Part shown: positions 15,412 to 54,950 of the stretch, one piece after another
Position numbering within the stretch: the first letter of the stretch is position 1
How the letters are laid out: every line of letters begins with the position of its first letter
Assembly (NCBI GenBank): GCA_016748015.1
Contig: JAAOMT010000168.1
Location: 76,190 to 140,189 of the forward strand
Direction of reading: 5' to 3'
DNA from: Geosiphon pyriformis uo1
Taxonomy: Eukaryota; Fungi; Glomeromycota
Length of the DNA: 64,000 bases
Position numbers and translations under genes: made by a program
The notes under the pieces: model-generated
The model's input: only the letters and a program-made list of their open reading frames with translations
What the model was told of the DNA's origin: nothing
Databases searched by the model: none

Positions 15412-18400
15412 CTAGTGCTAATGTAATAAACCCTTGTATTCTCCTAATAATGAATGTAAATTCTGTCTAATCTATTATAAAGATTGGGAACCTATTAGTC
15501 TAATACTCAAAGAAGAACTAAAAAAATACAAAAGTTCTTTGAAAATAAACCACCTGAGATCTAATCACTTGCAATAAAATATAAAAAACTTTTCTTTAAA
15601 GAAAAAAAAATAGACATTAAAAATCTGTTGGTTAGAAATAGCCCAGTTATTTAAAAAAAAAAGGATACCTCTAAATAAACTCATATATTATAATATATCA
15701 TTACTATCAAAAAAACTTACTCCATTTATTTGAAGCCTTATCAATCTAATTAATACAATAATGAGTTTATTAAAAAAGAGATAAACTGAATAAAAAATCT
15801 TGGATTTATACAAAAAACCAAAAGTAAATGGACTTTCTTAGTTATAGTAGTATCCAAAAAAGACAGAACTCTATACTTCTGTGTTGATTATTACCAATTA
15901 AATGCTATTATTATAAGAGACATATACTTACTTCCCAAAATTGATGTAATGCTAAACAAATTCAATAGTACTGCTTTTTTTTTAATCATTAACTTAACTG
16001 CTGAATTCTGGCAAGTAGAAATAGATCCAGAAAACAAAAAAATAACTGTCTTTATTACCAAATATGGCATTTATGAATTTACAGTTATGCTTTTTGGTTT
16101 TACTAATACTTTTTTTATTTTTTAATGTCTAATAAACAAAGTGTTTAAATTAATAAAAGAAAACTTTGTTTTAATTTATTTAAATGATATAATAATATAC
16201 TCAAAAACCTGAAATAAACTTCTTAAACACTTGCAAAAGATTTTTGATCTTCTTAAAAATACTGGTTTTAAGATAAACCTAATTAAATTTTTTTTTGAAT
16301 AACAATTTTCCCAGTTTTTTGGTTATCTTATTACAAAAGATAGAATCTTTCCTGATCCAGCTAAAGTTGAAAAAGTCTAAAACATTAAACAATCAATAAA
16401 TATTCCTAAACTATGCTTTTTCTTTGGTTTGGCTTTTACTATTACAAATTTATTAAAAATTTCTCTAAAATTGTCTTTCCTTTCAATTACTATTCAGAAA
16501 AAATATTAATTATTACTGGAGCATTTATCAACAAAAAGCTTTTGAAACTCTAAAAAAAAAACTTATTACTATACTAATATATCTGGTTATAGATTTGGTA
16601 CTGTTTTTTCACAAAAAAATAAAAATAACAGAGAACATATTATAGCATATGTCAGTAGAACGCTCACATCAACAGAAAAAAACTATTCAATTACTAAACA
16701 AAAATGCTTAGCAGTAGTTTGGGCTACTAGTTATTAGAATTAATATCTTTTTGGTGTAAAATTCTTAGTGATAACAGATTATTAAGCTTTGGTTTAGCTA
16801 TATAACAAAAAAAAACTAGAACATAAATAGATAACTTGCTAAATACTTTACTTAAATAAATTCAACTATAATATACAATACTGCAAAGGAGCAAATTATC
16901 AAAACACCAATGTTTTTTCCAGACTTACTATCCAGTGATAGTACAATCTTTCAACCAAATCATTTTAATTATTAGTATTTTTTTCTTTAACAAACATGAT
17001 AATAGACTTAGATAACTACTCTGCCTTAATAAAATTTTTAGATAAAAGACAATATCTATTAGACTACACTTAATAACAAAAAGAACATTTATACAAACAA
17101 TCAAATTTTTATTTGATTTGCCAAAACCAATTATATAAAAAAAATTAAAAAATTCTAACCACTTTTAGAGAATCATAAGATTTGAGGAAAAAGAAATTGT
17201 AATATACAACATACATACTAATCTATTAGCTAAACACTTTGAAAAAACTAAAACAATTCAAAAAACTTTAACTTGCTATTATTGGCCTACTTTGGAAAAA
17301 GACATTGCTGAGTACATCAAAACTTGTAATACTTGCCAAAGAAAAGGAAAACCTAATTGTCAAAAAGATATTCATCTAATCTCTGTTGGTCAATTATTTA
17401 ACAAAATTAACATAAATGTTATTGGACTCTTAATAATAACTTTTGATGACAATAAATATATTATTACAGCTACTGATTATCTTACAAAGTGAGTAGAAGC
17501 AAGAGTCACTCCAGATCAAACAGCAATCTTAATAGCTAATTTCATTTATAAAGATATTATTTATTACTATAGCTATTTCAAAAAACTTTTATCTGATAGA
17601 AAAAGAGCTTCTCTCAGTATACTAGTTAAAAAACTTTGTAGAAAAATGAGAATATGTTATAAACTTTCTTCCTTTTATCACTCTCAGACAAATAACCTAG
17701 TGAAATATTTCAATAGAACACTATGTAAAATCTTAACCAAAACCAGTAAAAAAACAAACTTATAAGACAAAGTACTGTCTTTAGCTTTGTTTGTTTATAA
17801 AACTGTGAATCATGACATAACAAGTTATGAACTTTTTTATCTATTCTATAAATACATAAAAACACTACTAATAGAAACTGATATTGAAACAATACTTTTT
17901 AAAGAAATCACAATAGGAAATTACAAAGATATTTTGCAAAGAAGATTTGGTATTATTCTTAACTCCTTGGTAGAAACACAAATAATTGTCTTTGAAAAAA
18001 TAAACCAGTTCTAAGAAAAGCTTAAAAAAAAAAAAATCTATAAAACACTTTTTTTAAGTATTAGTAACTTAGTTTTAAAATATTGCTTAGACAGAAACAA
18101 TATCTATGGTAATAAATTCTCTAACCAGTAAAAAAAACACTTTTTAGTTAACAATGTTTTGAACAATAGTTCTTATATCTTACAAAATTAATATAAAACA
18201 ATCTTTAATAATTATCTTGTTCATGATACATAACTCAAAAAATATTACTAACGATCTGATTAGTTATCTGTTGTAGTAATACTAACCCAAATGATTAGCA
18301 AAAATTAGATATAAATAAATACACCATTTTCAAAACAGAAATATTTTCAATTAACATGAACAATCATTTTTTGGATTAAAATATTCAAAATGGCTTCTAT

Positions 18401-19645: not shown

Positions 19646-22600
19646 ATAGCAAGTTATTTATTATTATTACTAATATATTAAGTCAAGTATTAAAAACACT
19701 ACTATTACAAAAAAAATCAAATAAACAAGAACATCTAATAATATATGTTAGCCAAAGTTTGAGTTTAACTAAAAAAAACTATAACATTCTAGTATTGAAA
19801 TACTTAGCTATTTATTAGACTGTTATCAAATAAAAGAAATACTAAATTTAAAAGTTTAATGTATATACTGATTACAAAAAATTGACATCAATTTAAAAGC
19901 AAAAATTTGGAGATAAATATCATATAAAATAAAAAATAAAATTAATACTATTTAATTATACAATACACTATAAAAAAGGAAAAAAAAATAAAAATACTGA
20001 CAGTTTGTTATAAATAAAACAAATCTAAAAACATTTTAATCCAAAAATATAACAAAAAATAAATACTCAAAAATATTAACAACTTCAATATTATATAAAT
20101 ACTTAATAATTTAAAGAAAAATTATCTCAAAAAAAACAAAACAACATAAAACAACAATCAAAATATTTTATTACTTATCAAAATATATTATATCAGAAAA
20201 ACAGAAAAGATACAAACCAGTTATTTAAAGTAATTATAGAACCAAAAAAAAAAACAATACTGTTTAACATACACTTAAATTTAACTATAAAACATTTTTA
20301 TAAAAAAGTAATTATAGAAAAAACCAGAAAAAAATACTATTAGTCATTAATATATCCAGATATCATTCAATATGTTCAAAATTGTAATGTTTTTCAAAGA
20401 AGAGAAAAAACAAAACACAGCAACTACTAAAACTAATCAAAGTAGAACAACTATTTGATCAGATTAGAATTGACTTAATAAGACTATTAATAATAACCAG
20501 CAAAGACAACTAATACATAGCAATAGCCATAAAGTATTTTATAAAATAGTCAAAAGCTAAAGCCATTCAAAGAGCAAATGCAAAATTTATAGCCGAATTT
20601 GTATACCAGAATTTGATTTGTCGATCTAAATATCCAAAAAAATTGTTATCAAACCAAAAAACTTATTTTGTAAACAAAACATTAACAGAATTAAGTCAAA
20701 AATTTAGAATTAAAAAACTATTATTATTTTTATATTATCTACAAACAAATAATTTAATTAAAAAATTCAATAAAACATTATGTAAAGCAATAATCAAGAT
20801 CAGTCAAAAAAACCAGAACAAATGAAATTTGTTTATACTATTAGTATTATTTGCTTATTGAACAATAAAACAAGATACTATATAAGCAATATCATTTGAA
20901 CTAATTTATAATAGAACAACAATATTACTAATTAAAATAAATATCAATACATATTCAACAAAACCAATAACAGAAGCCAATTTTTAAGAAAAATTGCTAA
21001 GAAAAACATATAACTTAATAGAAACTTTAAAAAACAACAGATAAAAAGCAGTTAATAACATACAAAAGTTACAAAAAAAACAACATAATAATCAGTAACT
21101 AAATAAACTGGTCGAATTCAAAATTAGAAACAAAGTACTTTTATATTATTCTAAAGTAAAAAAACAATAGAGTAGAAAGTTTGGTTCCAAATAAAATAAT
21201 CTATTTTACATTGAAAAATTCTAGAAAATAGAACTTATAAATTAAGATAAAACAATAAAATTTTAACCAAAACAGCACATAATAATTAACTAAAATTAGA
21301 TTACAATATAGTATTATTATTTACTAGTAATATTCTATAATTAAAAGTACAGAGAATACTAATTAAATCAGATAAAATTTTACAAGATTTAGAACCAATT
21401 ATAATCATCTAAAAAACATGAAAAATAGATCAAGATAAAAATATATAAAGACACAATATATGTAATAAAAGCAATAGTAAAAGATAAAAATCTTAGATCA
21501 TATTTATACAATAACACAAAAATTGTTTTAAGTCATAAATTAACAACAATTGAACATAAAAATTATTATAAATTATTAAACAATTTGTTATAAAAACACA
21601 AAAAAAAAATTACTTTATATTAGTAATTATAAAGCCAAACAAAGCATTAATTAGATAAAATTATAGAAAAAATAAAAAACACTTTTAGAAAAATACCAAT
21701 AAAAGAACTAACTAAAAAAGACTAAAAGTTATAAATAAAACAACTTTTAATAGCATATTATTATTATAAATTAAAACAAAAGCTAAATATTCAGAAGTTA
21801 TATACTAATAAATCCAAAAAAATGTTTAATTAAGAAATAGTACAACAGATTAAAGACTTTATTAAAAAAAAGACAAGTTTTATATTATATATTAAAACAA
21901 TTTATTAATTATATATCATATTTTAAAATTCTTCAAAAATACTATTATATTTAAAAATAAAAATAACCAACTTTCAATTCGAAAACATAAAAACCAGAAT
22001 TGAACAAACAGTATTAGAAAAAGAAGTAATAGACTTAATTCAAAATAAAAATTTCAACAGATCTTAATATTGAAGAAAAAGATAATATTACTTATAAAAA
22101 AAGAGCACAAAAAAAAATAAAGAAAAGCAAATTATAAAATAGACCAATAGAAAAATAGTACTCAACAAATAAACATATTTTTAAAAATGTGTATATTCTC
22201 AAAAAATAAACACATTTTCAGAAAATCACAGCACATTTCCAAAAAATAGTACAAATAAAAAGTAAAAATGTATAAGATCTTATATAACACAAATTATGTA
22301 TATATTGTAAGAGTATTAAAAGCAAAAAAGACAGAACAGTAGTTAATAACAAGTAATTATTTAATATTTCTCTTTTTAAAAGATAGTTTGCTATAATTTG
22401 AAGTAAAATTATATTTATATCTCAATAAAATACTCAATTATTATTTAATTTATGTTATTATTACTTAATTAAAAATTTTTATTCTTTTTATATTATTAAC
22501 AATCAATGTTAATAGAATATAATACTTAATCATACTAGAACAATAGTTTTTGATTATAGCTATTGACAAGATATTAATTTTTTATTTTTATTTTTTATTT

Positions 22601-29532: not shown

Positions 29533-31349
29533 TGTTGATAAAACAGGCAATTAAAGCAGCCAACTTTTTTTTAGACTGCAATTGCTTTAATGATTTTAAA
29601 TCATTGTTATCAATAGAATTTTAGCTATTAACTAGCATAAAATTACTCTTATAATTCCTATTATTAATTAGCATATATTAATACTATTTCAAATTATTAC
29701 TTATTAATTAATTAAATTATCAAATAGCACTATTTAATTATTAACCTAATTTGTATTATAGAAATTAAGATGATTAAATTACACAATACTCTGAACTACT
29801 TAACATTTAAAAATTCATTGAAATTTGTAAAAATTTGTTAAAATCATAAATAATTAACCAAAATAGTTAATAGTTTAACAAAATAACTTGTAGTTTGCCA
29901 AAATATATCTTTAGTTTATTGAAATCATAGTAAAGAAGAAAATTCAAGTTTATAAACAAGTACTATAACAAGTTGTATAAAAAAAAAGCTTTTTTTTTCA
30001 AAAAATGTATCTTATTTTCTATTAAATATTTTAATTAGAATCAATAATTCTTTATATATTTTTACAAATTAAAAATAAAAATCAAATATTCAAAAATCCA
30101 AATCTTTAATTATTATATTTAGAACTGCTAAAACCCAATTAACAATTTGAAATTGATTAGCTACCAATTTCAATAAATTTGTTAATAACTCTAGATCTGA
30201 ATACAAAACGTTTTTTTTGACAAAATTCTATTTTTTTTACATTTTTTATTATAATTATTAGAATAGTCTACAAATGAGATTTCTGTAAAAGAGTTAACTT
30301 TCACAGCAAAGTAATTATACAGTTTTGGTAAGTTTCCAGATAAGTAATTTTTGGGAAAGAGTTGATGTTTATTACAACATAACTATACAAAGTAATTGGC
30401 ATGAAATTGGCCATTTCACTTTTACTAAAGGTTTTTGGTCTCATTTCTTGAAGGTTATTAATGCCTAATTGCTGTAATTTCACGTTTTTTTGAAGTACTT
30501 GAACCTTCAATAACTGAATTTATCTTTTTAAATTATCTTTTATAATTTGAACTGCTGGACTTATAAGTAGAATGGCCAATTTTATGTTAGTTACTTTATG
30601 TAGTTACATTGTTATAAATATCAACTCTTTTCCAGAAATTGCTCATCTAGAAGTTCACTAAATGTGTAGTTACTTTGCTGTAAAAATCAACTTTTTTACA
30701 GAAATCTTGTCTGTAGACAACTCTAATGATTATGATAAAAAAAATTAAAAAATTAAAAAAAATTAAAAAAAATTAAAATTTTGTCAAGGGAAATGTTTTC
30801 TATCTAGGCCTGAAGTTATTAACAAATTTATTAAAATTGGTAAATAACAATTTCAAGTATAATAATTTAAAAATTTAAGATTTTTGAATATTTGATTTTT
30901 ATTTAATTTTGTAAAAGTATTTAAGAAATAATTGATTCTAATTAAAATATTTACGATAAAATAAATACATTTTCTTGAAAAAAGAAGCTCTTTTTTATAC
31001 AACTTGTTATAGTACTAGTCTTTGAACTTGCATTTTTTTTTTTACTATAATTTCAGCAAACTAAAGATACATTTCAGTGAATTACAAATTATTTCTACAA
31101 ATTATTGATTATTTCAGCCAATTTCTATCTATTTCGGCGAATTTTTGAATATTAAATAGTTTAAGATATTGTGTAATTTGATCATCTTAATTTTTATAGT
31201 ACAAATCGAATTGTTAATTGAATAATAATATTTAATAATTTGATTAACTAATAAGTGTTAATTGAAATAATAATAATATATACTAATTAATGCTAAGAAT
31301 TAAAAGAGTAATTCCATGTTAATTAATAGTTAAAATTCTACTGGTAACA
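29533..31349 (-). repeat. Putative 3' LTR of family C (~1.8 kb)
   Basis: Begins TGTTACC after the PPT; minus strand ends TTATCAACA at 29533, exactly where the family-A element is interrupted; second LTR not in window. Confidence 0.65.
29605..31349. repeat. Long imperfect inverted repeat, arms ~29605-30424 and ~30562-31349, spacer ~137 bp
   Basis: TGTTATCAATAGAATTTTAGCTATTAA / TTAATAGTTAAAATTCTACTGGTAACA at the ends; AGTACTATAACAAGTTGTATAAAAAA / TTTTTTATACAACTTGTTATAGTACT mid-arm; AAATTGGCCATT / AATGGCCAATTT at the inner ends. Confidence 0.95.
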
Positions 31350-32979
31350 TAATTTTCTCTTCAAGATTGAGTTCTATCAAAATCTAAGCACTATCTGTAA
31401 TATTGAGATAGTGGTCCAAAATAATCGTGGTAATTTGGTCTGAAAATTGTTGAAATTTCAGTTCTGTAAGTTTGCCAATGTATTGTATTTTTATTAGTTA
31501 GAGTATTAAATTTTATAAGATGTTTTCACAAGTATTAAATAAGTTATAAAGTCTAAGTGCTGCTCTGAGTTTATAGTAAATGTTTGTTGGTTCAGCTGCT
31601 GTCTTGAATCATTGTAAATTTGTTTTTGTATTGCTTCAGAAGTGAGATTTGTTGTTGTAAGTTTTAATTTTCATTAATAAAGTGTTCTTTCAATATAAAA
31701 ATAATTATATATAAGAGTATAGTTATTGTTCTGTTTATTAAAAATTAATAAAAGTTTTTGTTGGATTGTGTCATTTGGTAAAATGTCAATAGGAATAATA
31801 AGAAAGTTTTTTTTTAAAGTTTGCTTCAAAAGTTCTGGTAGTTGACTTTCAGAATAACTTCTTGTGTTTGTTTTATAAAAATGATATTTCTGGGAATTAT
31901 TTACTACTGAAACTGCAGTTTCTTTTTGGGTGTAATTAATTTTGTTTTCATTGATCATTATAGATAAGTCAGGAAGTGTTTTTAAAGCTAACATTAAATT
32001 TTGTGATATTTATTAAATGTTTCAGGGAATAAGCATTATAAAATTTGAATAAATTTTGAAATTTGAAAAAGAAAAAAATTATTTTTGGTATAGAAGTTTT
32101 TATATATTTTTTTGTTTGGGTATTTTTTGGTAATTATTTTGCTATTTTTGTTTTTAATGTTTCTGTATTTTAAAAGAAATAACTAATAAAATTAAATATT
32201 CAGATTTGTTATTATTCTATTATAACTATTGGTTCTAAATTTCGAGAAATATTTTTAGGATTAATTAGAAAAGAATATATACCAATTTGTGGAATTAATA
32301 ATTCAATTTTGTTTCTGGAATAATAGTGTTATAGTCGATTTTTTTGTGCAACTTTGGCTAGGATTTTGTTATCAAGTTTTAACTTGTATGATCTATTGCT
32401 TAAGATTTTATGAATATAAAATAGTCTATCTTATTTATGTTCAAATTTTTTACCCTATTGTTTTTTAGTCTTAGTTCTGTGTAAGAAAACTTTGTTTTCA
32501 ACTTTAAATTTATTAATAACTAATAGCAGTTTGTTATTATGCTATTCTTTTTGTTAAGCTTGAGAGTGTTTAATATAAGTTACTGCAATTTATTATTTTT
32601 TTTCCAATATGCTAAAAAGAGTGTAAACTCTTTGTTAAAAAGTTTCTTGGAAGTTTTTTTTTGTAATGAATTGTACTAGATATGTATCTACTGTAAAATT
32701 AATTAGTAATATTGCTATTCTTCTATTGGTAAGATCAAATGATATGTGTTTTATAGTATCTTGTTTTAGTGTTTTATATGCTAATAATACTGATAAAATA
32801 AAGATATTCTATTCTTGTTCAAAATTGGTTGAAACTTTAACTAGTAATTCACATAGTGTTTAGTTGAAACATTCTACAAGTTCATTTATTTGGAAGTAAT
32901 AAGATAATAATAAAAGTTTTTTAATATTGAATTGTTCACAAATTTTTTGCATTAAGTTATTTACAAAGTGTGTTTTTAT

Positions 32980-33340
32980 ATAAATTTATTTACAATTAAT
33001 AATAATATATTTTTTAATTTGATATTATTATAAAAACATAAACCTATTAGTGTTAAAACTGATGTTTTAAAAACAGTCAAATGGCTAGTTAGATTGGTTA
33101 ATAATAGTGCTATATTGTTTAAAATTATTCAAAAAATATTTTCTTTAGATAAGTTTTTTTTTAATGTATCAATATAATATAACTTAAATTAGCTTAAATA
33201 ACTAATTATATGTAAAAAGAACATAAACTGTATTTAACTTTAAAATACTTAATTTGTTTCTAATTTCTAAATAAAAATTAGATTATATATATTAAATATA
33301 TAATAAAAAATAATAAATATAAAAATAAAATAAAAAATAA
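32980..33340 (+). mobile_element. 5'-truncated ORF1-only LINE derivative (ORF1 C-terminus, 3' UTR, A-tail)
   Basis: Translates ...KPISVKTDVLKTVKWLVRLVNNSAILFKIIQKIFSLDKFF; inverted homologue of 35135-35460. Confidence 0.75.
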
Positions 33341-33344
33341 AACA

Positions 33345-34890
33345 ATTATTTATAACTAATTTTTGTTTTTTTATATATTATTAAAATTATAATTTTATAA
33401 GTTTTTTATTATAAATTTTAATATTTATGTTTATATAATATAGATAATATAAAAAATATTTTGTATTTTTATTTATAACTAAAAAAATTAAAAAAAATTT
33501 ATTTAATATTATTTGTTTTAATACTATTTTAATCTAAAAAATAAAAAAATATTAATAATTTTTCTAAAACTGTTATTAATATTATAATATATTTTTTTAA
33601 GATTAATTTGAAAATTAATATTAAGATTTATAGTTTGTTGTTTTTAATTTTAACTAATATACAAACTATTATTTTAATACTTATATATATTTTAATATTA
33701 TTTAATATTATAATTTTTTTTGATAACCAAGTATTTTAAATACTTATAATATTAAGTTAATATTAAAAGACTCTAATTTTTATAATAATTGTTAAATTAA
33801 ATACTATTATATTAAGAATTTAATTAAATTTAAAAATATTTTTATTAAATAAGTAAAAGTTAAAAGTTATTTTAATGTCTTAAACAATAAACAAACTAAT
33901 ATATTGGCTAATTTGATTATGTTTTTAGTGTTTATTTTTTCAGCAATTATTGAAAAAAGTTTTTTAATGATGACTAATTAGATAATTTTTAGTAATATAT
34001 TATTTTATTAAATGTTTTTTATAAAAAACTTGTCTAAATTTTAAGATTATAAATTTTTTATTTATTAATAATATTAATTGATATCTCATTGTTTTGGTTT
34101 AATACTCTAATTTTTATATAGCTGTTAGTTTTATAAATAAATTTATTATTAATTTATATATATATTTAATAAAAGTTTTATATAAAAGATTATTAATTAC
34201 TATTAGAAAGTAATTATATAATAATAAATATTCAAATATATTGCATATACAATATATAAAAATGAAGTTTTTAGATCAATTCTTTATCTATGATTCAAAT
34301 TTGTTTATTTATTAAAAATTATTAAATAAATAATTTTTTATTTAAAAATTTTTAACTAGTATTAATTTTGGTATTTTTAATAATGTTTTAATTATTGGTT
34401 TTAGGTTTTTTTAATATTAGTTTATACTTAATTTTATGTAAAAAGTTTATTTATAAAAATTAGTTAATAAAAACTAGAACAGTTTTTAATAATATTAAAA
34501 TTATTATATTAAAACTGGTTAATTTTGTATAAAAATTAGTTATTAATTATAAAGATTATATATAATTATCTAACTTAAAATTGCAAATGATAATAAAATA
34601 AAAAAAATTATTAAGTAATAATAATATGATATGTATTAATATTTCAGATATTTTAAAATAATGTTTTATAACATTATATTTGTTAAAAATAATTAAAAAC
34701 AAATTATTAGTTTTAAATTAAGAATTAAATACATATTTTTCTAATATATTTGTTAATATAGTTTTATAGTATTGTTTTAATTAGCCAATTGGCTAATTAT
34801 TTATAATAAATATATAAATCATATTTAATTTAAAACTTTAAATAGTTGTATTATATTAGTTAATAATTAAATTTTGCTTATAAAAAAAAA
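33345..34890 (+). mobile_element. Extremely eroded LINE 3' relic (RNase H / C-terminal region, 3' UTR)
   Basis: V*YSNFYIAVSFINKFIINLYIYLIKVLYKRLLITIRK (~34097-34210; cf. VWHPDSHMAAGFTSRFTANLCSYFIKTLYHYLLVAVRK); 3' UTR TAGTATTGTTTTAATTAGCCAATTGGCTAATT ~34767 and A-tail ~34882. Confidence 0.78.
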
Positions 34891-35134
34891 TTATTAAAAT
34901 CATTTTTTTCTAATTTATAATGTTTTAATTATGATTTTATTATTTTTATTGTTTATAAAAAAGTTTATATTAAAATATTAATATGTATTTTATTTTAAAA
35001 TATATTAAAAAAATATTAATGATAAAATATAATAAAATTAATTATTTATTATATCAAAGTTTTTTAAAATATATAAAAACAATATTTTAAATAAATTACT
35101 AAAAAATATTTTTAAAAAATTAACAAAAAATATA

Positions 35135-35562
35135 ATTTTTTTTTAATTTTATTGAGTAAGGATTAATTATTATCTAAAAATTAGAAACAAACCAAGTATT
35201 CTAATATTAAATATAGTTCACATATTTTCTATATATAATTAGTTACTTAAACCAGTTTAAACTATATTATATTGATATTTTAAAAAAAAATTTATCCAAA
35301 AAAACATTTTTTAAACAATTTTAAACAATATAACACTATTACCAAACAATTTAATTAGCTATTTAGCTGTTTTTAAGACATTAGTCTTTATAATAACAGA
35401 TTTATGTTCCTAAAATAACATTAGATTAAAAAACATATTATTATCAACAGTAGACAAACTTATATGAAAGCCAGATATATTAATATCTTCATAGCCAAAC
35501 TCAGTTGTTAAAACAACTACTTTCTATTCTAATTTATTAATAGTCTTATTAAAGATACTCAT
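35135..35562 (-). mobile_element. ORF1-only LINE derivative, 3' segment (split from 45721-47580 by the Gypsy insertion)
   Basis: ORF1 C-terminus, stop at 35267-35269, LINE-type 3' UTR (..CCTTACTCAATAAA) and A-tail on the minus strand. Confidence 0.8.
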
Positions 35563-36423
35563 TGTTACTTATAGAAATATAGAAAATATATTAGCATGAT
35601 TATTAAACAATCAGAAATAGGTATAGTAAATGTGGAATTCCAGGATTCTTCTCAGAAATTACAGGATTTCAGGAATTTCAGGATTCCCCGACGAGAAATC
35701 ACAGAATTCCAGAATTCCAGGATTCCTCTCAAAGAAATTGCAGGATTTCTGTCATAAAGAATCGAGGAATTGAGGAATCTCAATTATGTATATATAGCAG
35801 CAAGATTAGAAGCTAAAAAGACAGACCTCTTAGTTTTAAATTTAATTTAAGCAACTCTCTAAATTACAATCATCTAATAAATAACTATTTGTTATCTCAA
35901 ACCCATTTCCACTATCAACACTTTATGTTAATAGTAATTGATACTTAACCACACTAAAACAATAGCTCTTGATTATGGCTATTAATGAAATACTAACTTG
36001 CAAATTGCCTTGGCTTATTTCTTTTCTTTCTTTATTTTATTTTCTTTTCTTTATTTTCTTGCTTTGATTTTATTGTTGTTTACTAACTCTATTGAGGATT
36101 AGCGCACAGAGCACTAATGTCAGGATAAACATGACTGGTAAAAGACCCAGAAATAAGAGTAAAACACTCGATTGAGAATAGCTTACCAGGAGAAATACTG
36201 GCCATCAAGCTGAAAAAAAAATTGATGAAACTGCAGTTTTGGGAAGCTATGAATAAAACTATCACCATTGAATCTCTGTCCATTATACAAAAAACTCAAC
36301 CAAACCCTTCAAATACAAAACCTTTAGATACCAAACCTTCAGATCATCGACAATAAGAATAACCTTAAGCACCAAGTTACAGGTTTGTATTTAATTCAAC
36401 CTCAGAAATTGTTACTTGTAACA
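35563..36423 (+). repeat. 5' LTR
   Basis: TGTTACTTATAG...CTTGTAACA; direct repeat of 44867-45720. Confidence 0.96.
35633..35800 (+). promoter_or_regulatory. LTR U3 array of GGA(A)TT(C/T)CA motifs followed by TATA-like TATATATAG
   Basis: About 10 short motif copies; TATGTATATATAG conserved in all family-A LTRs; function inferred from position. Confidence 0.55.
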
Positions 36424-36442
36424 TTTGATGCTTCCTGTGAGG
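36424..36442 (+). promoter_or_regulatory. Primer-binding site
   Basis: TTTGATGCTTCCTGTGAGG directly after the LTR; variants at 13309, 13361 and 25744 give consensus TGGTGCTYYCTGTGAGG. Confidence 0.85.
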
Positions 36443-36485
36443 TATAATCTTACAGAGAACCAGCACCAACAAACACTATTCAAAA

Positions 36486-39400
36486 GTGGCAGAATCAGAA
36501 AACATAAGAGCAAACCATTTAGGATTCACAAAATCCCTATTTCAATACTATTGTCAACACTTGAGATTAAACTACAATTATATATCTGCCAAATCAGTCT
36601 TTAATTTCTATGTCAATGAAAAAATTTCCTCTTTGTTAGGAACACCAGTGAATACTAAATCAGCCAGAGAAACTTTCTACAGAGAATTAATTCAAAATAC
36701 CAACCTGCCAACAAATCACAATTTTGCCTCCATCATTACTGAGATCAACAAAGAAATTGAATATTACACCCAACAAAGATATCCAATTACTTATGCTAGT
36801 AAAGGCAAAGAAAAACTACAAACACCAGCGGTAACACCCAAAAGGATACAACCACCCATTTGGAAGAAAACAAGAGCTGAATCACCAACTGCTCCATCTT
36901 ATCACTACACACCAGGAAGCGCCATCAATATAACATCAGCAAGTGTGTCCATATCAAATGCAATATTAACAATCAAACAATTCCCATTCCAAAGTAAACA
37001 AAGAAAAACAGATCTACTAGAACCATATGGCAAATATTTTGAAGGATTTAAGTCATAATCACCAACACCATCAGGAATTCAATTACTGCTGCCTCAACTG
37101 GACTTTGGAACCATTACCCTATGGGAACTATCTGAAGAAAAAGAAGAAAAAGAATTAGAAGATCAAGAATTTACTTACCAAAACTTGATCCTTGAAAACC
37201 TGGAATTTGAAACCCCAAACGTTCAAACTCAGTGAAAAAATCCAGAAATTGAAACTCCAAATATTCAAGCACTGCAAAATCAAAACCCCAAAGTAATTAA
37301 TCAATACTTACCTCCAGTTATCATCATTAATCAACCACCAGTTGAACCAATTGGTCAGCCCATCCAAATACTGAACCAACAAACTCAACAACCACCCCCA
37401 GTACCACCTCAACAACAACAACAACTTCTACCACAGCAACAACAACAAATGGCATACGCATCAATCGCAAAGCTCAACAAATTTACCGGCAAAAAGGACG
37501 ACACACAAGTTTGGCTAAATAATGTAGAAAAAGCCATCGCAGCCAACGGATGGAATAATGCCAGAGCCATGCAAGTCATATCTTATTTTCTCAAAAATAC
37601 AGCAGATTCATGGTATCAAAGCCTGATTGACAAACTCCAAGATTTCAATGCCTTCAAATTAGAATTTTTGAGATACTTTAGCAATAACAACAGCATCAAT
37701 AGATTAGCCAACACTTTCATTACAATTAAACAAAGAGAAACTGAAGCAGTTACCACATATCTGGGACACTTCCATAGAAATCTGCAACAAATTCAAGCAA
37801 TTGATGCTAATTATTTTACAGCGCCACAAATTCTCAATCAATTCATCCGTGGTCTGTGCAGTAGCATTCTGTAACACTTACACCCATTGCATCCAGCCAC
37901 TTTCCAGGACACAGTCACATATGCCAGAGATTTCAAATCTGCCAAATTAGAAGCCAATCATGCTCACGCTGTGAACCTAGTGATGAATGGATCATCTGAA
38001 TTGGATTTTAAATTGAAACAAGTCAGTAATTCAATTAATCAGAAGTTAAAAGAATACTTAGCTGACAATTGCGCAATTTATCAACCACCACAACAATACA
38101 ATAATCCAAAAAATGCGAATTGTTTCCAAAATCAGTCACATCCATCATTATTATCAGCAGTACCTAATCAGCCATGACAGCCAGAAACACGTGTTTGCCA
38201 CAACTGTGGTAAACAAGAACACATAAGAGCAGACTGCAGATTTTATAGCAACAATTCACAATCAGGAAATCAATATTGAAACCTCAATCACAGATTTCAA
38301 ACTCCAAATTGTTATCCAAATCAAAATCAAACTACTTACCTGCCAATAATGCAGCCACCAATCTATCAGCTGCCAATATATCAACCTCAAATTTATCAAC
38401 TGCAGCCACCAATAATCTATTAGCCACAACCCCAAATAATTTATCAATCCCAATCAATTCAGACACTGCCCCAAAATTCAGTTAATATGACATCAGGCCA
38501 CCTCAAACCTAGAATTACACAAAACTGGAGATTGGCAATGATTGTCCACCAACTGATCTCCAGTTCTTTTAACTCACCATCAGAATTGCGTTCTTGGAAT
38601 TCGGGTACTGGTGCCACCCAAAACCTGAATTCTCAGAACTATTTAAGTCTCTTAGTTATCCCAGAAGATGCCACCAACACCAATTTGGGATCTAACCAAC
38701 AATTAACACTCACCAGCAATATTCCACCAGCCACCGTTACAGAAGACAAGTTACTCGCAGCCATATCCCCATTTGAAATTGAGGAACCATCAGAAGTTTC
38801 TTTGTTCAACAGAGTCACTATTGAGGAAAAACCCATCACAGCGATATACACCGATGCCAAAATTAATGGCCATTTCATCAAGCTCATTCTTGATAGTGCG
38901 TCAGCAGGCAGCATTATCACATGACAACTTATGGACCAATTAGGTCGCCGAGTTGATCATGTTGCCAGTGCCAAAATTATAACAGCTGATGGAGCAACCA
39001 AAACTCCTATTGGTGAGATTAACAATCTACCCATTGAAATTAATAGCATCACTGTACCAATCAAGATATTAGTAATGGAAGCAACCCAGTACCAAGCTCT
39101 TGTTGGCAACAACTGGTTGTTTAAAACCAATGCAATACTCGACTGAAACACACAGGAACTCCAACTTAGCCAAAATGGCCAATACATGTGAGTACTGGCC
39201 ATGTGTGGCCATTTTAAATCTAACAACATCACATTATCAATGCCGCTTATTGATTTTGAAAAGGAAAAACCAAAGCTTACTTGGGAGATGTATCAAGTAT
39301 CATGGGCCAATGTCGAGCACAACAAGCTACCGCCAATTCTAGACTGGGAAGAAAGGAACAATGTAAAGAGAAAAGAAACAGAAACAGAAGAACATACCTG

Positions 39401-42400
39401 TGAAACCACTATTAATATCTGGAATAATGACGATGAAAGTAAAGCAATGCCAACCAGCTGAAAAGAAAAAGGGAAAGGAAAGGAGAAAGAAGAAGACTTA
39501 TCTGGAAAAGCTAACGAAGCCATAGAAAAAATAACCAGTGACTAGGAAAGAGAATATTTACATAAACCAGTAAAGAAGTCACCTTACATTCTCTTAAAAT
39601 GTCAGGACTGTAAGAAAAAACTCTCTTCTATGGAAGCATGGATCATGCCAGACGAAGACTACTGGACACGAACCCACTACTACTGCAAACCATGCCATAA
39701 AGAATGCTATAGTTATCCAAAATGACAAGGCAAGTGAGACAACAAACCATGTCTCGCTTGTGGCGAACAGTTACTCGATGAAGAAATGTGGAACGACATT
39801 CCTGGTTGAGGAGGAACATGCGACGCTTCATGCTAATACATGATCTTTATCAGCGATTGAATAAGTTACAGCATGCCAATAACAGCTGCTTGGCACCAAG
39901 CAATATCTCGCTTAGAAGGTTACTCACATGATGAAGACAAAATCTGGTGAATGGCCAATGCCAAAGTAGAGGACGCTTCGCCCAGTGAGATTCTAGAGAT
40001 CAAGAACAACTTTCCAGAACCAACAAACATTGTTTTGGTTCTCAACCCAGATGCCTTTCTCAACTTAGAAAACAGTCCAGAAGAATTCCATGAACACTAT
40101 CAGAACTTAGCACTCATCAGAAAAAAGCAGAAACAAAGATTAAAAGAAATAAACACTTGACTATGTGACTATTGTTTGATTCCATGTGACTTCTAATATT
40201 GTAATAAGTGTGATCTTATTTACAATCCACCACCACGCATGATCTACAAGATTTCCAAAAAGGAAGAACCAATCAGCAGCTGCACATCAGAATCAGAATT
40301 GATTTTCAATTCCAATTTAAACTCTGACAAGAATGACAACGAAAACACCGGTTTCAGCTCTATTCAAAATGACATTAACAATGACAACAATTCCAACTCA
40401 GATCCAAACTTTGACCCAAAATATGAACAATATATTGCACTGCCAGACCTCTCCAAAGAACAGAAGTTGAAATGATATAGTGATAATAATGAAGATATCA
40501 TGCCAGAACATGCACACGATACTGATGCTGGATTTGATCTGAGATATCCAGGAAAAGATGCCATTAAATTGGAGCCAAACATGTGAGTATGCATTGATCT
40601 GAGAATAGCTCTAGAGATCCCAGCAACAACCATGGTTCTGTTAGCATCTAGAAGTAGTTTAGCAAAAAAAGTGATTAATATTAGAGGGTAAATAGTGGAT
40701 GCAGGATATATAGAAAATATTAGTGCCATGTTACAAAATGACTCAGAAAAAGCTTACACTATTGAGCCAAATGAAAAGATAGCACAGGCCATATTCCTGC
40801 CACTAGTCAAAGTAGCTAGCTTAGTGTCAGTGGGAACAAGAGAGAAATTAGGGATAACAGCAAGAGGGATACAAGAATTTAGATCAACAGGTAGAATAGA
40901 TATACCAGTTAATATGACAGAGGAAGAAATTGTTGGCCAAGGAAAAATTATCTCAACCGGTCAAACTATTTCCATTTCACTATATAGCCAGTACATGCTA
41001 GCAATAAAAAGGAAGGAAAAAGAACAGAATCAGATTTTTGAAGCAGAACCAACTCTTTGCAAATCAGGAGAGATTGGACTCATCAATCTCCATATACCAG
41101 CCAAAGATTACAGCCACATCAAAATTTTTATCTACAACAACACAGGAAATGTCATAGTGATACCAGCCAGAACCACTATGGGATACTTAAACACTGAAAT
41201 AGAAGATCAACCACCAAACTCCATTCCAAACTTTCCACAGCTTTGTGGATATGTCGACATCATATCACAAACAATCTATGAACAAGACAAATGTTATTTG
41301 CTCCAACCAGAACAATTAGAACAAATGAACATGGGAAATCTAGACCTATTACAACGTATACAGCTCAAGATGTTACTCAACAATTACAATAATATCTTTG
41401 TCAGCAAAAACAAATTTGGCAGAACTGACATCATCCAACATCAAATCAAGACTGGAGATGCAATGCCAATCAAACAGCAAGCATACAGAGTACCACCAGC
41501 CAGCCATGAAATTATTCATCAAGAAATCAACTGAATGCTTGACAATGAGTTAATTCAGCCATCAATGAGCCCATGGTTGTCACCAGTAGTACTCGTCTGT
41601 AAGAAGAATGGAAAGATCCGATTTTGTGTAGACTACAGGAAACTAAATAGTGTAACTCATGGAGACAGTTATCCAACTCTATAGATACAAGAACTATTCG
41701 ATGCTTTTGGTGGAAACAAATGGTTCTTAATGTTAGACTTAAATAATGGTTACTAACAAGTAACCATGGATCCAACCAACAAAGAAAAGATGGCATTTAC
41801 CACCAGAGAAGAGAATTTTGAATTTAAAGTAATGCCATTTGGCTTAACCAATGCACCAGCCACTTTCCAAAGACTAATAGAAATTGTTTATATGGGTTTA
41901 TTGTGGAAATCAGTAGTTGTATACTTGGATGACACTAATGTATTTTCAAAAACATTTGATGATCATCTTCATCATCTTCAACAAGTGTTCGAAAGACTAA
42001 GAAAAGCAGGACTAAAGTTAAATACAACAAAGTGTTTCTTTAACAAGACAGAACTAAAATTCTTGGAACACATAGTCAGCAAAGACAGCATCAAAACAGA
42101 TCCAGAGAAAATAGAGATAGTAAAGAACTTTCTAGTGCTGACAAATATGACAGAACTGAAATTATTCTTGGGATTTGCCAGCTATTATTGATGTTTTATC
42201 AAGAACTTTTCCAAGATAACACAGCCACTCAACCAACTGCAAACCAAGAATACAAAATATGAATAGACAGAAAGTCAACAAGAAGCTTTTGATATTCTGA
42301 GAAGAAAGCTCATTCAAGCTCCAGTACTGATCTATCCAGATCACAGCAAACCATTCATCATTACTACTGATGCATCTGGCCAAGCATTGGGAGCAGTATT

Positions 42401-42725
42401 ATCTTAGAGAGGACCAGATAGCAGGGAACATCCAGTAGCATATGCCAACAGAGATTTAACACCAGCCGAAAAGAATTATGAAACACTGGAACAAGAACAC
42501 TTAGCAATATACTGGGCAGTCATGAAATAGAAAAAATACTTGAGCCAAAAGTTTGAAGTATACACAGATCACAAAGGATTAACATCACTTCAAAAACAAA
42601 AATTTGGAGATGGAAGACAGTTAAGATGGAAAATGGCACTCATACCATATAATTATACTATACATTATAAAAAGGGAAAAGACAATGGAAATACTAATGG
42701 TTTGTCACAAATGAGACAAATCTAG
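36486..42725 (+). pseudogene. gag-protease-dUTPase-RT-RNase H polyprotein, one reading frame, internal stops
   Basis: ORF-track pieces 36486, 37449, 37887, 38487, 38931, 39201, 39951, 40239, 40695, 41766 and 42540 are all in the same frame; capsid (VWLNNVEKAIAANGW), CCHC CHNCGKQEHIRADC 38196-38237, LILDSAS, FCVDYRKLN, YLDD, TDASG, YTDH. Confidence 0.93.
40500..40895 (+). pseudogene. dUTPase domain within the Gypsy polyprotein
   Basis: All five trimeric dUTPase motifs: DAGFDL, ASRSSLA, IVDAGY, KIAQAIF, RGIQEFRSTG. Confidence 0.92.
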
Positions 42726-42786
42726 GAACATTTCAACCCAAAATATAACAAAACCAGAACAATACCAACAAAAAATATAACAAAAG

Positions 42787-44169
42787 ATGAACATACAAAA
42801 ATATCAATAACTGCAACATTATATAAACACTTAACAGTTCAAGAAGAATTTATCTCAAACAGAATGAAAGAGTATCAAACAACAATCAAAATATTTTATC
42901 ACTTACCAAAATATACTTTATCAAAAAAATAGAAGAGAGCTAGAACAACCAACCAGAGTAATTACAGAGCCAAAAAAAGAGACAATATTATTTAACATGC
43001 ACTCAAATCCAACAACAGGACACTTTCACAAAGAAGCAACCATGGAAAGAACCAAAAAAAAATACTATTGGCCATCAATGTATCCAGATATCATCCAATA
43101 TGTTCAAAATTGTGATGCTTGTCAGTGAAGAGGAGGTACAAAACCCAGTGAACCATTAAGACCAATCAAAGTGGGACAACTATTTAACCATATTGAAATT
43201 GATTTAGTTGGACCATTAATAATTACCAGAGGAAGAAACAGATACATAGCAGTAGCCATGGACTATCTCACTAAATGGCCAGAGACAAAAGCAATTCAAA
43301 GAGCGGATGCAGAATCCATTGCCAAATTCATTCATCAAGATTTAATTTGTCGACACGGATGTCCAAAGGAATTATTATCAGACCAAGAAACTCATTTTGT
43401 AAACAAAACATTAACAGAATTGAGCTAAAGATTCGGAATTAAGAGATCACTATCATTATCATACCATCCACAAACCAACAGATTAGTTGAAAGATTTAAC
43501 AGAACATTATGTGAAACAATAGCTAAGCTCAGTTAAGAAAACCAAAATGATTGGGACGTGTTAATATCAGCAGTACTATTTGCTTATCGAACAATGAAGC
43601 AAGACACTACACAAGCAATACTATTTGAATTAATATACAGTAGAACAGCAATATTACCAGTGGAGATAGAGGTCAACACATATCCAACTGAACCAATAAC
43701 AGAAAAGAATTTCTAAGAAACATTATTAAAAAGAACATATAACTTAATGGAAATATTGGAAAACAAATGAAAAAAAGCAGCTGATAACATACAAAAGTCA
43801 CAAGAGAAACAGAAAAAAAGACATAATAATCAACTATCAAACAAACCAGTTGAATTCAAGATTGGAGACAAAGTACTCTTACATCATACCAAAGCGGAAA
43901 AACAATAGAGTGGAAAATTTGACTCCAAATAGAATGGACCATTTCACATAGAAAAAATTCTAGGGAATAGAGCTTACAAATTAAGACTGGACAACAAAAT
44001 CTTAACCAAAGCAGCACATAGAGATCGACTGAAACCATACCACAACACCATACTACCATCCACCAGTAATATTCCACAATTAGGAGTACAGAGAATACTA
44101 GTCCAATCAGATCAAATTCCACGAGATCTGGAACCAATTATTATTATTAACAACAACACATCAAATTGA
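42787..44169 (+). pseudogene. Integrase (HHCC, DDE core, GPF motif), separate ORF
   Basis: ATG 42787; HSNPTTGHF, CDACQ, IDLVGPL, SDQETHF, LVERFNRTL, GPFHI; ends LEPIIIINNNTSN*; no chromodomain visible. Confidence 0.92.
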
Positions 44170-44193
44170 TCCATCAAAAAAATATATAAAGAC

Positions 44194-44853
44194 ATGGTAA
44201 ATATGACAGGAAATATCAGAAAAATAGAAATTACAGACAACATTCACTCACTAGTACAACAACTTTTTTAATTGATCCAACACCAGGAAATAGAGATTAT
44301 AATCAATTAACAAACCATTCGATATCAAGATACTAGAAAGACATTGCAATCTAGAACACAGAAGAAAACTGAAAATACTGTGGACAAAATCATTGTGAAA
44401 GTAAAATTAGCAATAAGAGAGTTGACAAAAGAGTCACTATATCAAGAATTGACTAAAAAAACTTGGAATTAGTAGATACAACAATTTTCATGAAACTATT
44501 GTTATTTTTACTTGGGACAACATGTAAATATCCAGAATCTATATATAGATAAAACAAAGTGATTATTTGACAAAAAAATACTACAACAATTAGAACATTT
44601 TGTGAGAAAGAATAACTTATCCACACAGACCTGAGCTATATACCAAATATACACAACATTTCAGGATAGACCAGAAATATTACTCAACAAAGCAATAAAT
44701 ATGGTTATCAGTAATCAATTGGGAAAGATTACCAATGCTCAATTTGAAGAATTACAGACCCAAATAACACAAGTAATTTTCAAAAACAAAATCCAGAAAA
44801 TACTTCAAGAGGGGGAATTATATGAGTTGGATTTCAACAGAGCTCAATATTAA
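44194..44853 (+). pseudogene. ORF3 of unknown function (~219 codons) between integrase and PPT
   Basis: ATG 44194 and TAA 44851-44853 in frame; internal stops consistent with single transitions; homologous segments in three other elements. Confidence 0.75.
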
Positions 44854-44866
44854 AAGGAGAGAATAA
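44852..44866 (+). promoter_or_regulatory. Polypurine tract
   Basis: AAAAGGAGAGAATAA immediately before the 3' LTR. Confidence 0.88.
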
Positions 44867-45720
44867 TGTTACTCATAGAAATATAGGAAATATATTAGCA
44901 TGATTATTAGTCAATCAAAAGTAGGCATAGTAAATGTGGAATTCCAGGATTCCTCTTAGGAATTGCAGGATTCCAGGAATTTCAGAATTCCCCAACAAAG
45001 AATCACAGGATTCCAAAATTTCAGAATTCCAGGAATTCCAGGATTCCTGTCATGAAGAATTGAGGAATTGAGGAATTTTAATTATGTATATATAGCAGCA
45101 GGATTAGAAGCTGAAAAGACAGACCTCTTAGTTTTAGATTTAATCTAAGCAACTCTCCAAATTACAATCATCTAATAAATAACTATTTGTTATCTCAAAC
45201 CCATTTCCACTATCAATACTTTATGTTGATAGTAATTGATACTTAACCACACTAGAACAATAGCTTTTGATCCAGCTATTGACGGAATACTAACTTGCAA
45301 ATTGTCTTGGCTTATTTCTTTTCTTTCTTTATTTTATTTTATTTTCTTTATTTTCTTGCTTTGATTTTATTGTTGTTTACTAACTCTATTGAGGATTAAT
45401 GTGCAGCACACTGACATCAGAATAAACGTGACTAGTAAAAGACCCAGAAATAAGAGTAAAACACTCAATTGAAGATAGCTTACCATGAGAAATACTAACC
45501 ATCAAGCTGAGAAAGAAATTGACAAAACTGTAGTTTCAGAAAGCTACGGATAAAACTATTACCATTGAATCTCTGTCCATTATACAAAGAACTCAACCAA
45601 ACCCTTCAGATACAAAATTTTTATATACCAAACCTTCAGATCATCAACAATAAGAATAGCTTTGAGCACCAAATTATGAGTTTGTATTTAATTCAACATC
45701 AGAAATTGTCATCTGTAACA
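44867..45720 (+). repeat. 3' LTR
   Basis: TGTTACTCATAG...TCTGTAACA. Confidence 0.96.
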
Positions 45721-47580
45721 TTATATGTACTAAAATCTTATTAATCTTAAGGCTAAAAACACTACTTAAAACCAAATACTTATTAATAAATTATTTAAGC
45801 ATAGTAATCATAAAACCAACTGACATAATAATAGACTCAATTAAAATAGAAAGCTTGACCAAATTAGATTCCAGAAAAGCCAACTGAAAAAAAACCACAA
45901 AATTATTAGTTATTATATTAGCAGAAAAAGCTAAACCAACCAAAGAACAAAAAGCTAAAAAGATACAAAAACAGTAGCTTTGATATAAAACTTGTTGTTA
46001 ACAACACAAGAAATAAAAGTCTTGAAAATTTTAAAAAAGAGAGATAAAAACACTTTATAATTTAAGTTAAATAATCTAAATTTTAATACTAAAAACAGCA
46101 CTAATTTTCAGAAATCTTTTATTATATATGATACTTTCTTAGTATACTAATTTTAATAACTATGATATCTAAATTAATTTGAGATTCAAACATAATTAAA
46201 GCAAACCAGAAACAATGGTTAAAATCAAGAAAATAAAAAATAAAACATATCTGATTATTAATCTGAAAAATCATATTATTAATTTCAAAAGCAGTATAAT
46301 TAAAGAAACAATTAATCAACTTGGCCTTAAATCTATCATAAAATATAATAGTTTTATTTTAATTTATTAAGAAGAAGATTCTAACACTATTTTTACTTAC
46401 CAAAACTGACCAATAATTCAAAGTAAATACAATAGAGTTCAGTTTATTAAAATAAATAATCACATATTGTCAAATTCTAACAGATTTCAATATAATATAA
46501 ACAACCTTATTAAACATACTAAGAGCTATTATGATATTAGCAGTAAATACACCCAAAGATATATTATACAGTACAATAGTAACAGAAAGAGAACTACTCT
46601 TAAAAACCACCAAAAACTTGGTAATTTTAAGAGTAATTAAATAAACAAAGCTCATAAGCTCAACCAGAAAAGCAGCTTTTAAAGACTTCTAAAAAGCAAA
46701 CTTCATACAAAAAAGCTTTACATTGTTTTTTTACACCAACTTTACATCCAAAAATCCATGTACAAACTGAAAAACAGTCTTAATATAAGCTAATTTAATC
46801 TTAAAAGTAGTATTAAACACCAAAAAAAAAGTCTATTTACTTAGTAAATCTTTAACAACTAATAATAATTTCTTAAACACTATTAGTAGCAGCACCAAAA
46901 ACCAGCAGAAGAAATGATTTAGTTTTCATTTGGTTAATTTAGTTTTTAAAAACAGATGACTTTATAGAAAATAGTTGCTTTACTTTTATAATTGATAAAA
47001 ATCTGTTAAAAGACTTTATATTTAACAATACAGCTAATAATAAATCTTGATTTATTTTAAATAACATATTAGATAATACAATAGAAATTTTATCTAAGAT
47101 CTTATCTAAAACCACAAAAGAGTTTGGTGTAATAATAACAAAGACAAGTGACTGTTTCCATTTTTTTGAAACTTTGGTTTTTTTGATCATTATTTTTAAA
47201 GAAGCAGTACTAAAAGCACTAGGTGTAAAAACTATAATAAGAAAATTTAGCTTATTAATTAGTCTGTTATTAAAAACTTTTGGGTTTTTAGAAGGAGTAA
47301 AAGCAATTTTAGAACTATTTCAAATGTGTTTCTTTAAAAAAATTTTGACTAGTAAAAAATCAGTTAAAGATACAAAGATATTTTAGTGACTACTAAAAAC
47401 AGTTTTTTATTATTATTAACTAAAAAAAAAGCTTTTAAGATGTTTTACTTAGTTGTTTTTACAACAAAAAGAACTTTTTTAGTTAAAACTTTGTGAAATA
47501 TTAAAAAAAAGTATCAGTTACAGCTTTTTTACTCTTTGTTTTAATTGTGATTATAAAATTAAAAAGACAAAGAGATGTTT
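45721..47580 (-). mobile_element. ORF1-only LINE derivative, 5' segment
   Basis: Minus-strand ORFs 46939-47190, 46470-46655 and 46122-46319 resemble LINE ORF1 (e.g. TAFEINNMIFQINNQICFI vs TAYDLSGLLESYNEKTCFI); LINE-like 5' end CATCTCTTTGTCTTTTTAATT..TAATCACAAT; frame rejoins 35558 after removing the Gypsy. Confidence 0.8.
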
Positions 47581-54794: not shown

Positions 54795-54950
54795 TGGTGT
54801 TCTGATTGGTTTGAGTGGCTAGTTACTTGTAGAAAATACATAATTCATGCCTAGTATATAATTATTTCTTTGATGTATAGCATTAGGCTGTGTTTGGGCC
54901 TTACTCGTTAAATGTTAATATAAAAAAAATAATAATAATAATATAAAAAA

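What the first reader, a model, noticed from the sequence alone, without database searches (positions are those of the whole stretch)
32205..32245. Integrases end in a conserved PxVx[I]-like hydrophobic motif instead of a chromodomain
Seen: family C ends RNLEPIVIIE*; family A LEPIIII (44128-44148 and ~21389-21410); family B *LSVVVI (~18261-18281, revertible to WLPVVVI). The surrounding tail is not conserved. Known: PxVxL/I motifs bind the HP1 chromoshadow domain, and Ty5 integrase targets heterochromatin via a short C-terminal peptide binding Sir4. Inference: an HP1-tethering targeting peptide, consistent with every LTR insertion boundary visible here lying within another TE.
Basis: inference. 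Interest (0 to 1): 0.7.

Follow-up and report, generated by a model that had tools for sequence, protein, structure and literature searches.

The report
Conserved docking peptide on fungal integrases
These decayed fungal jumping genes belong to a large group whose integrase lacks a chromodomain and ends in a short, conserved but often-lost peptide (W-x-P-x-I-x-I) that likely docks onto a host protein, although the proposed partner, the heterochromatin protein HP1, is untested and fits the sequence no better than the phosphatase calcineurin.

Summary
The motif is real and far more widespread than the window shows. It is present in 89 of 142 non-redundant intact relatives (within-tail shuffles give 2.3), with consensus Y-x-D-R-x-x-W-x-P-x-[I>V]-x-[I>V], kept at protein level and confined to one chromodomain-less Ty3/gypsy clade whose integrase is a separate ORF. 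The peptide was gained or lost about 14 times on the tree, shifts 26 residues in families A/C, and is unfolded in two AlphaFold models, so it is likely an accessory docking strand. HP1 is not favoured: 0 of 89 are PxVxL, the centre is Ile in 61, flanks are not basic. Calcineurin's PxIxIT fits the core best but not the flanks; SUMO-binding fits a third to a half. No binding test was obtained. Nesting in TEs is uninformative in a window at least 77% repeats. Verdict: new variant of an integrase tail peptide, partner open.

The parts
32215..32244 (-). Family C integrase tail motif RNLEPIVIIE (distal copy); followed by decayed stops at 32209-32214
   Evidence: native end from Geosiphon proteins
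32215..32973 (-). C-terminal half of family C integrase (core end, long helix, SH3, 43-residue tail with degenerate proximal copy of the motif); upstream part interrupted at about 32974
   Evidence: tblastn
31342..32021 (-). Family C ORF3-like sequence after the integrase
35563..36423 (+). 5' LTR of the family A element (TG...CA)
   Evidence: 88.6% identical to 3' LTR
37236..42725 (+). Family A gag, protease, Cys-rich insert, dUTPase, RT, RNase H, ending in a stop at 42723-42725
   Evidence: Pfam; tblastn
42787..44169 (+). Family A integrase as separate ORF (own ATG, other frame), broken by stops
44122..44148 (+). Family A motif RDLEPIIII, 6 residues before the stop
44200..44850 (+). Family A ORF3-like sequence between integrase and 3' LTR
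   Evidence: no Pfam name obtained
44867..45720 (+). 3' LTR of the family A element
20059..21412 (+). Second, more decayed family A integrase with DLEPIIII at 21386-21409
16996..18290 (+). Family B integrase, separate ORF after RNase H stop; decayed motif position 18261-18281

Best explanation
The integrases of this chromodomain-less Ty3/gypsy clade end in a conserved, dispensable peptide, W-x-P-x-[IV]-x-[IV], that likely binds as an added beta-strand in the groove of a host nuclear protein and so would tether or regulate the intasome. Shown: the motif, its conservation at protein level, its patchy loss, its shift in families A/C, absence of a chromodomain. Predicted: the proximal Y-x-D-R part packs on the SH3 domain, the distal strand is free. 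Inferred: a host partner and an effect on integration. Within this reading my odds for the partner are calcineurin about 0.2, HP1 about 0.2, SUMO about 0.1, another groove protein the rest.
For: Conservation: 77 of 118 hits of a search in which the tail was not scored, 75 with Pro exactly 8 after the SH3 Tyr; 89 of 142 at <90% identity versus shuffle mean 2.3; all four Pro codons and all Ile/Val codons used in 34 DNA copies. Alternating buried/variable pattern: positions 1, 3, 5 fixed, 2 and 4 variable. Dispensable: 45 of 142 intact integrases stop within 9 residues of the SH3 Tyr; 14 state changes on the tree versus 33 for shuffled labels, with whole subclades lacking it; motif-less integrases sit behind RT-RNase H in 14 loci (one, L014, cut by the contig end) as do motif-bearing ones in 17. 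Mobile: in families A/C an intact copy lies 26 residues further out and the canonical position is degenerate; deeper relatives keep P-x-[VI]-x-I-[DE] even 100+ residues from the end. Unfolded in single-chain models: pLDDT 64 for residues 411-420 of P0063, 57-62 for the family C tail, no strand assigned. Precedent: Ty5-Sir4, Ty1-AC40 peptides (PMC7459421 passages).
Against: No binding or insertion-site data. Tail presence covaries with integrase's own SH3 loop (K361 in 84% of motif-bearing versus 22% of motif-less) and core position 182, which could mean an internal contact; after correcting for kinship only about 3 of 10 independent pairs go the same way, none opposite for K361, not significant. 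Fixed spacing in most members suits a fixed contact. Single-chain models cannot show contacts between subunits. None of three named host grooves fits fully.
Confidence: 0.62

Rival explanations
1. HP1 tether: the peptide binds the chromoshadow dimer and steers integration to H3K9me chromatin, replacing the chromodomain.
For: Alternating P-x-h-x-h core; occupies the chromodomain's place, and chromodomain-bearing relatives fall outside the motif clade. Central Ile occurs in some HP1 ligands (10.1101/2024.12.03.626544 passages; Mit1 CkIvV in PMC11833287 passages).
Against: PxVxL 0 of 89; central Val 25 of 89; basic +4 residue 1 of 35; no basic residue in the 9-mer in 73 of 89; aromatic at -4 in 77 of 89 and acid at -3 in 39, both disfavoured in the Drosophila code; 35 of 89 have no residue after +2. 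The flank rules come from Drosophila only. HP1 not shown in Glomeromycota (0 occurrences of HP1 or H3K9 in 10.1101/2021.03.30.436303; search listed nothing on this lineage).
Confidence: 0.2
2. Calcineurin docking: the peptide is a PxIxIT mimic that recruits or blocks the Ca2+-dependent phosphatase, tying integration to calcium or stress signalling.
For: [quoted passage not shown] Several lineages have Val/Ile at -1 with Thr at +6, the favoured flanks. Precedent of an integrase binding a phosphatase subunit: HTLV-1 and PP2A-B56 (search listing).
Against: Acid at -1 strongly reduces calcineurin binding (PMC6728138 section 9) and is present in 39 of 89, including all window A/C copies; 35 of 89 lack position 6; the conserved Trp is unexplained.
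Confidence: 0.2
3. SUMO-interacting motif: the strand binds SUMO on sumoylated chromatin.
For: Window copies (PIVII, PIIII) are textbook hydrophobic cores with neutral-to-acid flanks; net charge of the 9-mer is zero or negative in 78 of 89. Two stand-alone integrases in the same clade carry a Ulp1 SUMO-protease domain.
Against: Only 32 of 89 have three aliphatic residues in four (45 if Pro/Met allowed); no acid run; invariant Pro and Trp are not SIM features (PMC8616421, PMC3631770 passages).
Confidence: 0.12
4. Internal strand: the peptide pairs with another integrase subunit, RT or Gag, stabilising the intasome or bringing the separately translated integrase into the particle.
For: Fixed spacing (75 of 77); covariation of tail with SH3 loop 356-363; Ty3 integrase has Arg and Pro at the same offsets after its SH3.
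Against: Repeated loss in intact lineages that still have a separate integrase ORF; shift by 26 residues in A/C; covariation points to the proximal Asp, not the distal strand; a Pol-fused relative (P0268) also has it.
Confidence: 0.25
5. Artefact of AT-rich, Ile-rich decayed sequence.
For: Loose P.[IVL].[IVL] occurs 140 times in the window's six frames.
Against: Position-specific conservation in intact relatives with saturated synonymous sites.
Confidence: 0.02

Closest known systems
Ty5 integrase targeting domain (Sir4) and Ty1 targeting domain (AC40)
   Same: Short peptide in the integrase C-terminus, separable from catalysis (PMC7459421 passages).
   Different: Those are Ty1/copia elements with tested partners; here a Ty3/gypsy clade, a hydrophobic beta-strand pattern, no partner known.
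Chromoviruses and yeast Ty3 (SH3 followed by chromodomain or vestigial chromodomain)
   Same: Same integrase fold (Foldseek to PFV and Ty3; profile to 7q5b E 5e-57); Arg and Pro at the same offsets after SH3.
   Different: No chromodomain, tail too short (about 12 residues; 43 in family C) and unfolded in models; integrase is a separate ORF.
HP1 chromoshadow ligands (PxVxL, HAC, FxxVVI, CkIvV)
   Same: Alternating hydrophobic pentamer starting with Pro.
   Different: Ile-centred, never PxVxL, non-basic flanks, often at the very end of the chain.
Calcineurin PxIxIT docking motif (NFAT, Crz1, viral A238L PKIIIT)
   Same: P-x-I-x-I-polar core.
   Different: Frequent acid at -1, frequent lack of position 6, conserved Trp at -2.
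Ginger1 DNA transposons
   Same: Stand-alone Gypsy-like integrase of about 400 residues; some clade members carry Ulp1 (PMC2836005 passages).
   Different: The window's elements have LTRs, gag, RT and RNase H.

Membership tests
Ty3/gypsy LTR retrotransposon | LTRs with TG...CA; gag, PR, RT, RNase H, IN order; GPY/F-SH3 integrase | tested here: met
Ty3/gypsy LTR retrotransposon | Integrase inside the Pol polyprotein | tested here: not met
   separate ORF in three window copies and 34 of 34 loci with RNase H visible upstream
Chromovirus | Chromodomain at integrase C-terminus | tested here: not met
   Pfam; own profile; model
HP1 chromoshadow ligand | PxVxL-like core with central Val (Ile tolerated) | tested here: inconclusive
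   PxVxL 0 of 89, Val 25, Ile 61, Leu 3
HP1 chromoshadow ligand | Basic flanks, basic +4 (Drosophila HAC) | tested here: not met
   1 of 35; 73 of 89 without basic residue
HP1 chromoshadow ligand | Binding to host chromoshadow dimer; HP1 present in host | not testable with these tools
   no host genome held; no HP1 sequence obtained
Calcineurin PxIxIT ligand | P-x-hydrophobic-x-hydrophobic-polar core | tested here: inconclusive
   47 of 54 with a sixth residue; 35 of 89 have none
Calcineurin PxIxIT ligand | Non-acidic residue at -1 | tested here: inconclusive
   acid in 39 of 89, Val/Ile/Leu in 28 (PMC6728138 section 9)
Calcineurin PxIxIT ligand | Binding to calcineurin A | not testable with these tools
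   no calcineurin sequence found
SUMO-interacting motif | Three aliphatic residues in four, acid flank | tested here: inconclusive
   32 of 89 (45 with Pro/Met); strict SIM-a with chain end counted as acid 27
Integrase targeting domain (Ty5/Ty1 type) | Changes insertion sites when deleted or swapped | not testable with these tools
   needs experiment or genome-wide young insertions

The most novel reading that the evidence does not exclude
A retrotransposon integrase has replaced its chromodomain with a mimic of the calcineurin PxIxIT docking motif, so that a Ca2+-activated host phosphatase is bound at the intasome and transposition in arbuscular mycorrhizal fungi is coupled to calcium signalling.
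Probability: 0.18. Interest if true: 0.8.

Novelty: new variant of a known kind. Interest (0 to 1): 0.45.

Why it matters
Short integrase tails decide where Ty1, Ty5 and retroviruses land. This clade is large (2122 proteins at E 1e-30 or better in one length-limited search) and LTR elements cover 41.2% of the G. pyriformis genome (PMC11952901 passage). A 7-residue motif with many natural losses gives a ready contrast: motif-bearing and motif-less families can be compared for insertion sites in the same genomes, and one peptide pull-down could name the partner. If it is HP1 or calcineurin it would be a tether I did not find described for retrotransposon integrases (searches; titles and abstract starts only).

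Tried and rejected
Host genome: none held, so no genome-wide insertion analysis and no search for HP1. Complex prediction of integrase core with its own tail gave no model and no verdict. No HP1 or calcineurin sequence was obtained (one search found nothing), so neither pairing was modelled; a SUMO gene was found (L082) but not used. Vestigial chromodomain in the 43-residue family C tail: rejected, no Pfam or profile hit and no fold. Packaging tag for the separately made integrase: weakened, motif-less integrases are equally separate. Link to ORF3: none seen, ORF3 follows both kinds (the tally missed some ORF3s). tRNA-gene targeting as in Ty3: no tRNA genes in the window or 60 of the 80 metagenome loci, but most loci hold little flank. 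Origin from the strand that precedes chromovirus chromodomains (recalled as PPPVxIDGE): only partial resemblance in P0210 and P0235, a search for more found nothing; left open. Atlas: ORF3 gave no usable name; the tail was not searchable. The Pfam scan of window ORF3 and the family C scan used the wrong frame and carry no weight. Earlier-findings look-ups for this motif found nothing.

Full report
Setting. The window is an AT-rich, CpG-depleted stack of decayed LTR retrotransposons and LINEs. The closest named relatives of the integrase tail are Geosiphon pyriformis proteins at up to 66% identity over 97% of the query region, so the host is likely that fungus or a close relative. No whole genome is held. 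The least decayed element runs from 35563 to 45720 with LTRs 88.6% identical; 83 of 91 substitutions are transitions. All copies here are old.

Observation. The three LEPI[IV]II strings are at the stated places and are the only ones in six frames. Family B shows stop-L-S-V-V-V-I at the matching position. The claimed ends are not native. A search with the family C SH3 and linker, leaving the motif unscored, returned 41 Geosiphon proteins; 18 reach the motif, 16 of these keep its Pro, 14 end in NLNT-stop and none ends at Glu. The window's two TAA codons replace Gln codons. These are genomic copies of one family, so their agreement shows the master sequence and not selection. Families A and C share the whole tail and are one origin.

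Conservation in intact relatives. Using residues 60-405 of P0018, tail excluded, 2122 proteins scored E 1e-30 or better; I examined the best 120. Two lack the SH3 end; 77 of the other 118 carry P-x-[IVL]-x-[IVL], 75 with Pro 8 residues after the SH3 Tyr. Adding intact ORFs from 80 metagenome loci and collapsing 168 sequences at 90% identity left 142: 89 with the motif, 45 ending within 9 residues, 8 other. Shuffling within tails gives 2.3 on average, at most 9. In 34 DNA copies the Pro uses all four codons and the Ile/Val positions all their codons. Consensus: Y-x-D-R-x-x-W-x-P-x-[I>V]-x-[I>V]. In a length-free profile search (best 150 examined; that profile included the tail) deeper relatives keep P-x-[VI]-x-I-[DE], also far from the chain end. 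On a FastTree of 94 cores all motif-labelled rows fall in one 45-row clade (SH-like 99) with no chromodomain; chromodomain-bearing proteins lie outside it (labels by pattern, a few missed). So 'instead of a chromodomain' is a fair description.

Accessory behaviour. Presence or absence changes 14 times on the tree against 33 for shuffled labels (minimum 23, 116 rows; 14 again on 134 rows); whole subclades of intact 410-residue integrases lack it. Without a root the count does not itself separate gains from losses; presence in the deepest branches makes loss the likelier reading. In families A/C the canonical position is degenerate (PEPLIPQI) and an intact copy lies 26 residues further out, as after a short duplication. 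AlphaFold2 on P0063 with 111 sequences gives a confident PFV/Ty3-like integrase with residues 401-410 at pLDDT 89 and 411-420 at 64, no strand; the family C protein P0296 gives 84 for the proximal part and 57-62 for the rest. Tail presence tracks the SH3 loop, above all K361, and the Asp at -6 covaries most with positions 361-362; after kinship correction this is not significant. The simplest reading is that Y-x-D-R caps the SH3 domain and presents a free strand.

Which partner. HP1: ligands have central Val or sometimes Ile and, in Drosophila, basic flanks with a near-invariant basic +4 and few acid or aromatic residues (10.1101/2024.12.03.626544, passages). Here PxVxL is 0 of 89, central Val 25, Ile 61, basic +4 1 of 35, aromatic at -4 77, and 35 chains end at +2. 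Fission-yeast ligands are looser (PMC11833287, passages), so HP1 stays possible. Calcineurin: the core fits best (47 of 54 with a sixth residue; consensus in PMC6506691, passages), but acid at -1 strongly lowers binding (PMC6728138, section 9 and passages) and is present in 39 of 89. SUMO: window copies look like SIM cores, but only 32 of 89 (45 with Pro/Met) have one (PMC8616421, PMC3631770, passages). All three bind a beta-strand, so the sequence supports the mode and not the name. No binding model was obtained.

Insertion sites. Protein hits and self-repeats cover at least 77% of the window, LTR elements 41.2% of the G. pyriformis genome, and in Rhizophagus young TEs are reported to be removed early from the gene-rich compartment (PMC11952901, passages). 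Old nested copies therefore say nothing on targeting. The 4-base flanks of the 35563-45720 element are TCAT and TTAT, compatible with a decayed CpG-centred target as an earlier unchecked note proposes; a sequence preference of that kind would be a second, HP1-independent route to nesting.

Architecture. Integrase is a separate ORF after the RNase H stop in three window copies and in 34 of 34 loci where RNase H is visible (17 motif-bearing, 14 motif-less of which L014 is cut by the contig end, 3 other). This agrees with two earlier notes on this genome and does not depend on the motif.

Literature. Ty5, Ty1 and Ty3 precedents were read as passages (PMC7459421; 10.1101/2021.07.27.453949), Ginger1 as passages (PMC2836005), HTLV-1 with PP2A-B56 as search listing only, Rhizophagus TE epigenetics as passages with no occurrence of HP1 or H3K9 (10.1101/2021.03.30.436303). 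Searches listed no paper on this motif; I judged from titles and abstract starts, the library lacks most subscription papers, and no supplements were opened, where TE family descriptions could mention it.

Verdict. A real, ancient, optional integrase tail motif, likely a docking strand for a host protein (0.62); HP1 specifically about 0.2. New variant of a known kind; interest 0.45.

Noticed in passing
window 42723-42789, 20026-20061, 16930-16998; loci L002-L081: Integrase is a separate ORF with its own ATG after the RNase H stop; 34 of 34 informative metagenome loci agree.
   Followed up: yes
window 44200-44850, 31342-32021(-); L002 6576-7061, L017 5452-5871 and others: A conserved 140-230 residue ORF3 without Pfam name follows the integrase in many elements; a similar sequence precedes gag in L032.
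   Followed up: partly
window 37311-37334: The gag-region frame of the family A element holds PPVIIINQ, the same P-x-I-x-I pattern, upstream of the capsid domain; may be chance.
   Followed up: no
window 39300-40900: Cys-rich insert and a dUTPase between protease and RT in the family A element.
   Followed up: partly
L002, L005, L007, L010, L012, L016, L017, L021, L023 (end of pol): A Cys/His-rich domain is fused after RNase H in many relatives, no Pfam hit in the two scanned.
   Followed up: no
L030 6939-8249 and 12108-12749; L055 1876-2886: Cargo-like ORFs: NUDIX plus deoxynucleoside kinase between RNase H and integrase, NUDIX after integrase, Mrr-type nuclease further downstream.
   Followed up: no
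L030 5467-5471, L032 3551-3555, L021 3952-3956 and 4804-4808: Single in-frame stops inside gag-pol of otherwise intact loci; readthrough or decay not decided.
   Followed up: no
proteins P0179, P0222: Stand-alone integrases with a C-terminal Ulp1 domain, as in Ginger1, nest inside the motif clade.
   Followed up: partly
window 29605-31349 and 32974-35469: Two long imperfect inverted-repeat structures; the second interrupts the family C integrase and itself hosts the family A insertion.
   Followed up: partly
window 35559-35562 and 45721-45724: 4-base flanks TCAT and TTAT, compatible with a decayed CpG-centred target-site duplication.
   Followed up: partly
window 1-5216, 8193-12628, 48718-61630, 62302-62763: Several copies of a LINE-like element with RT and C-terminal RNase H.
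   Followed up: no
L082 430-702: An intronless SUMO-like gene (identified by eye) in a giant-virus bin.
   Followed up: no
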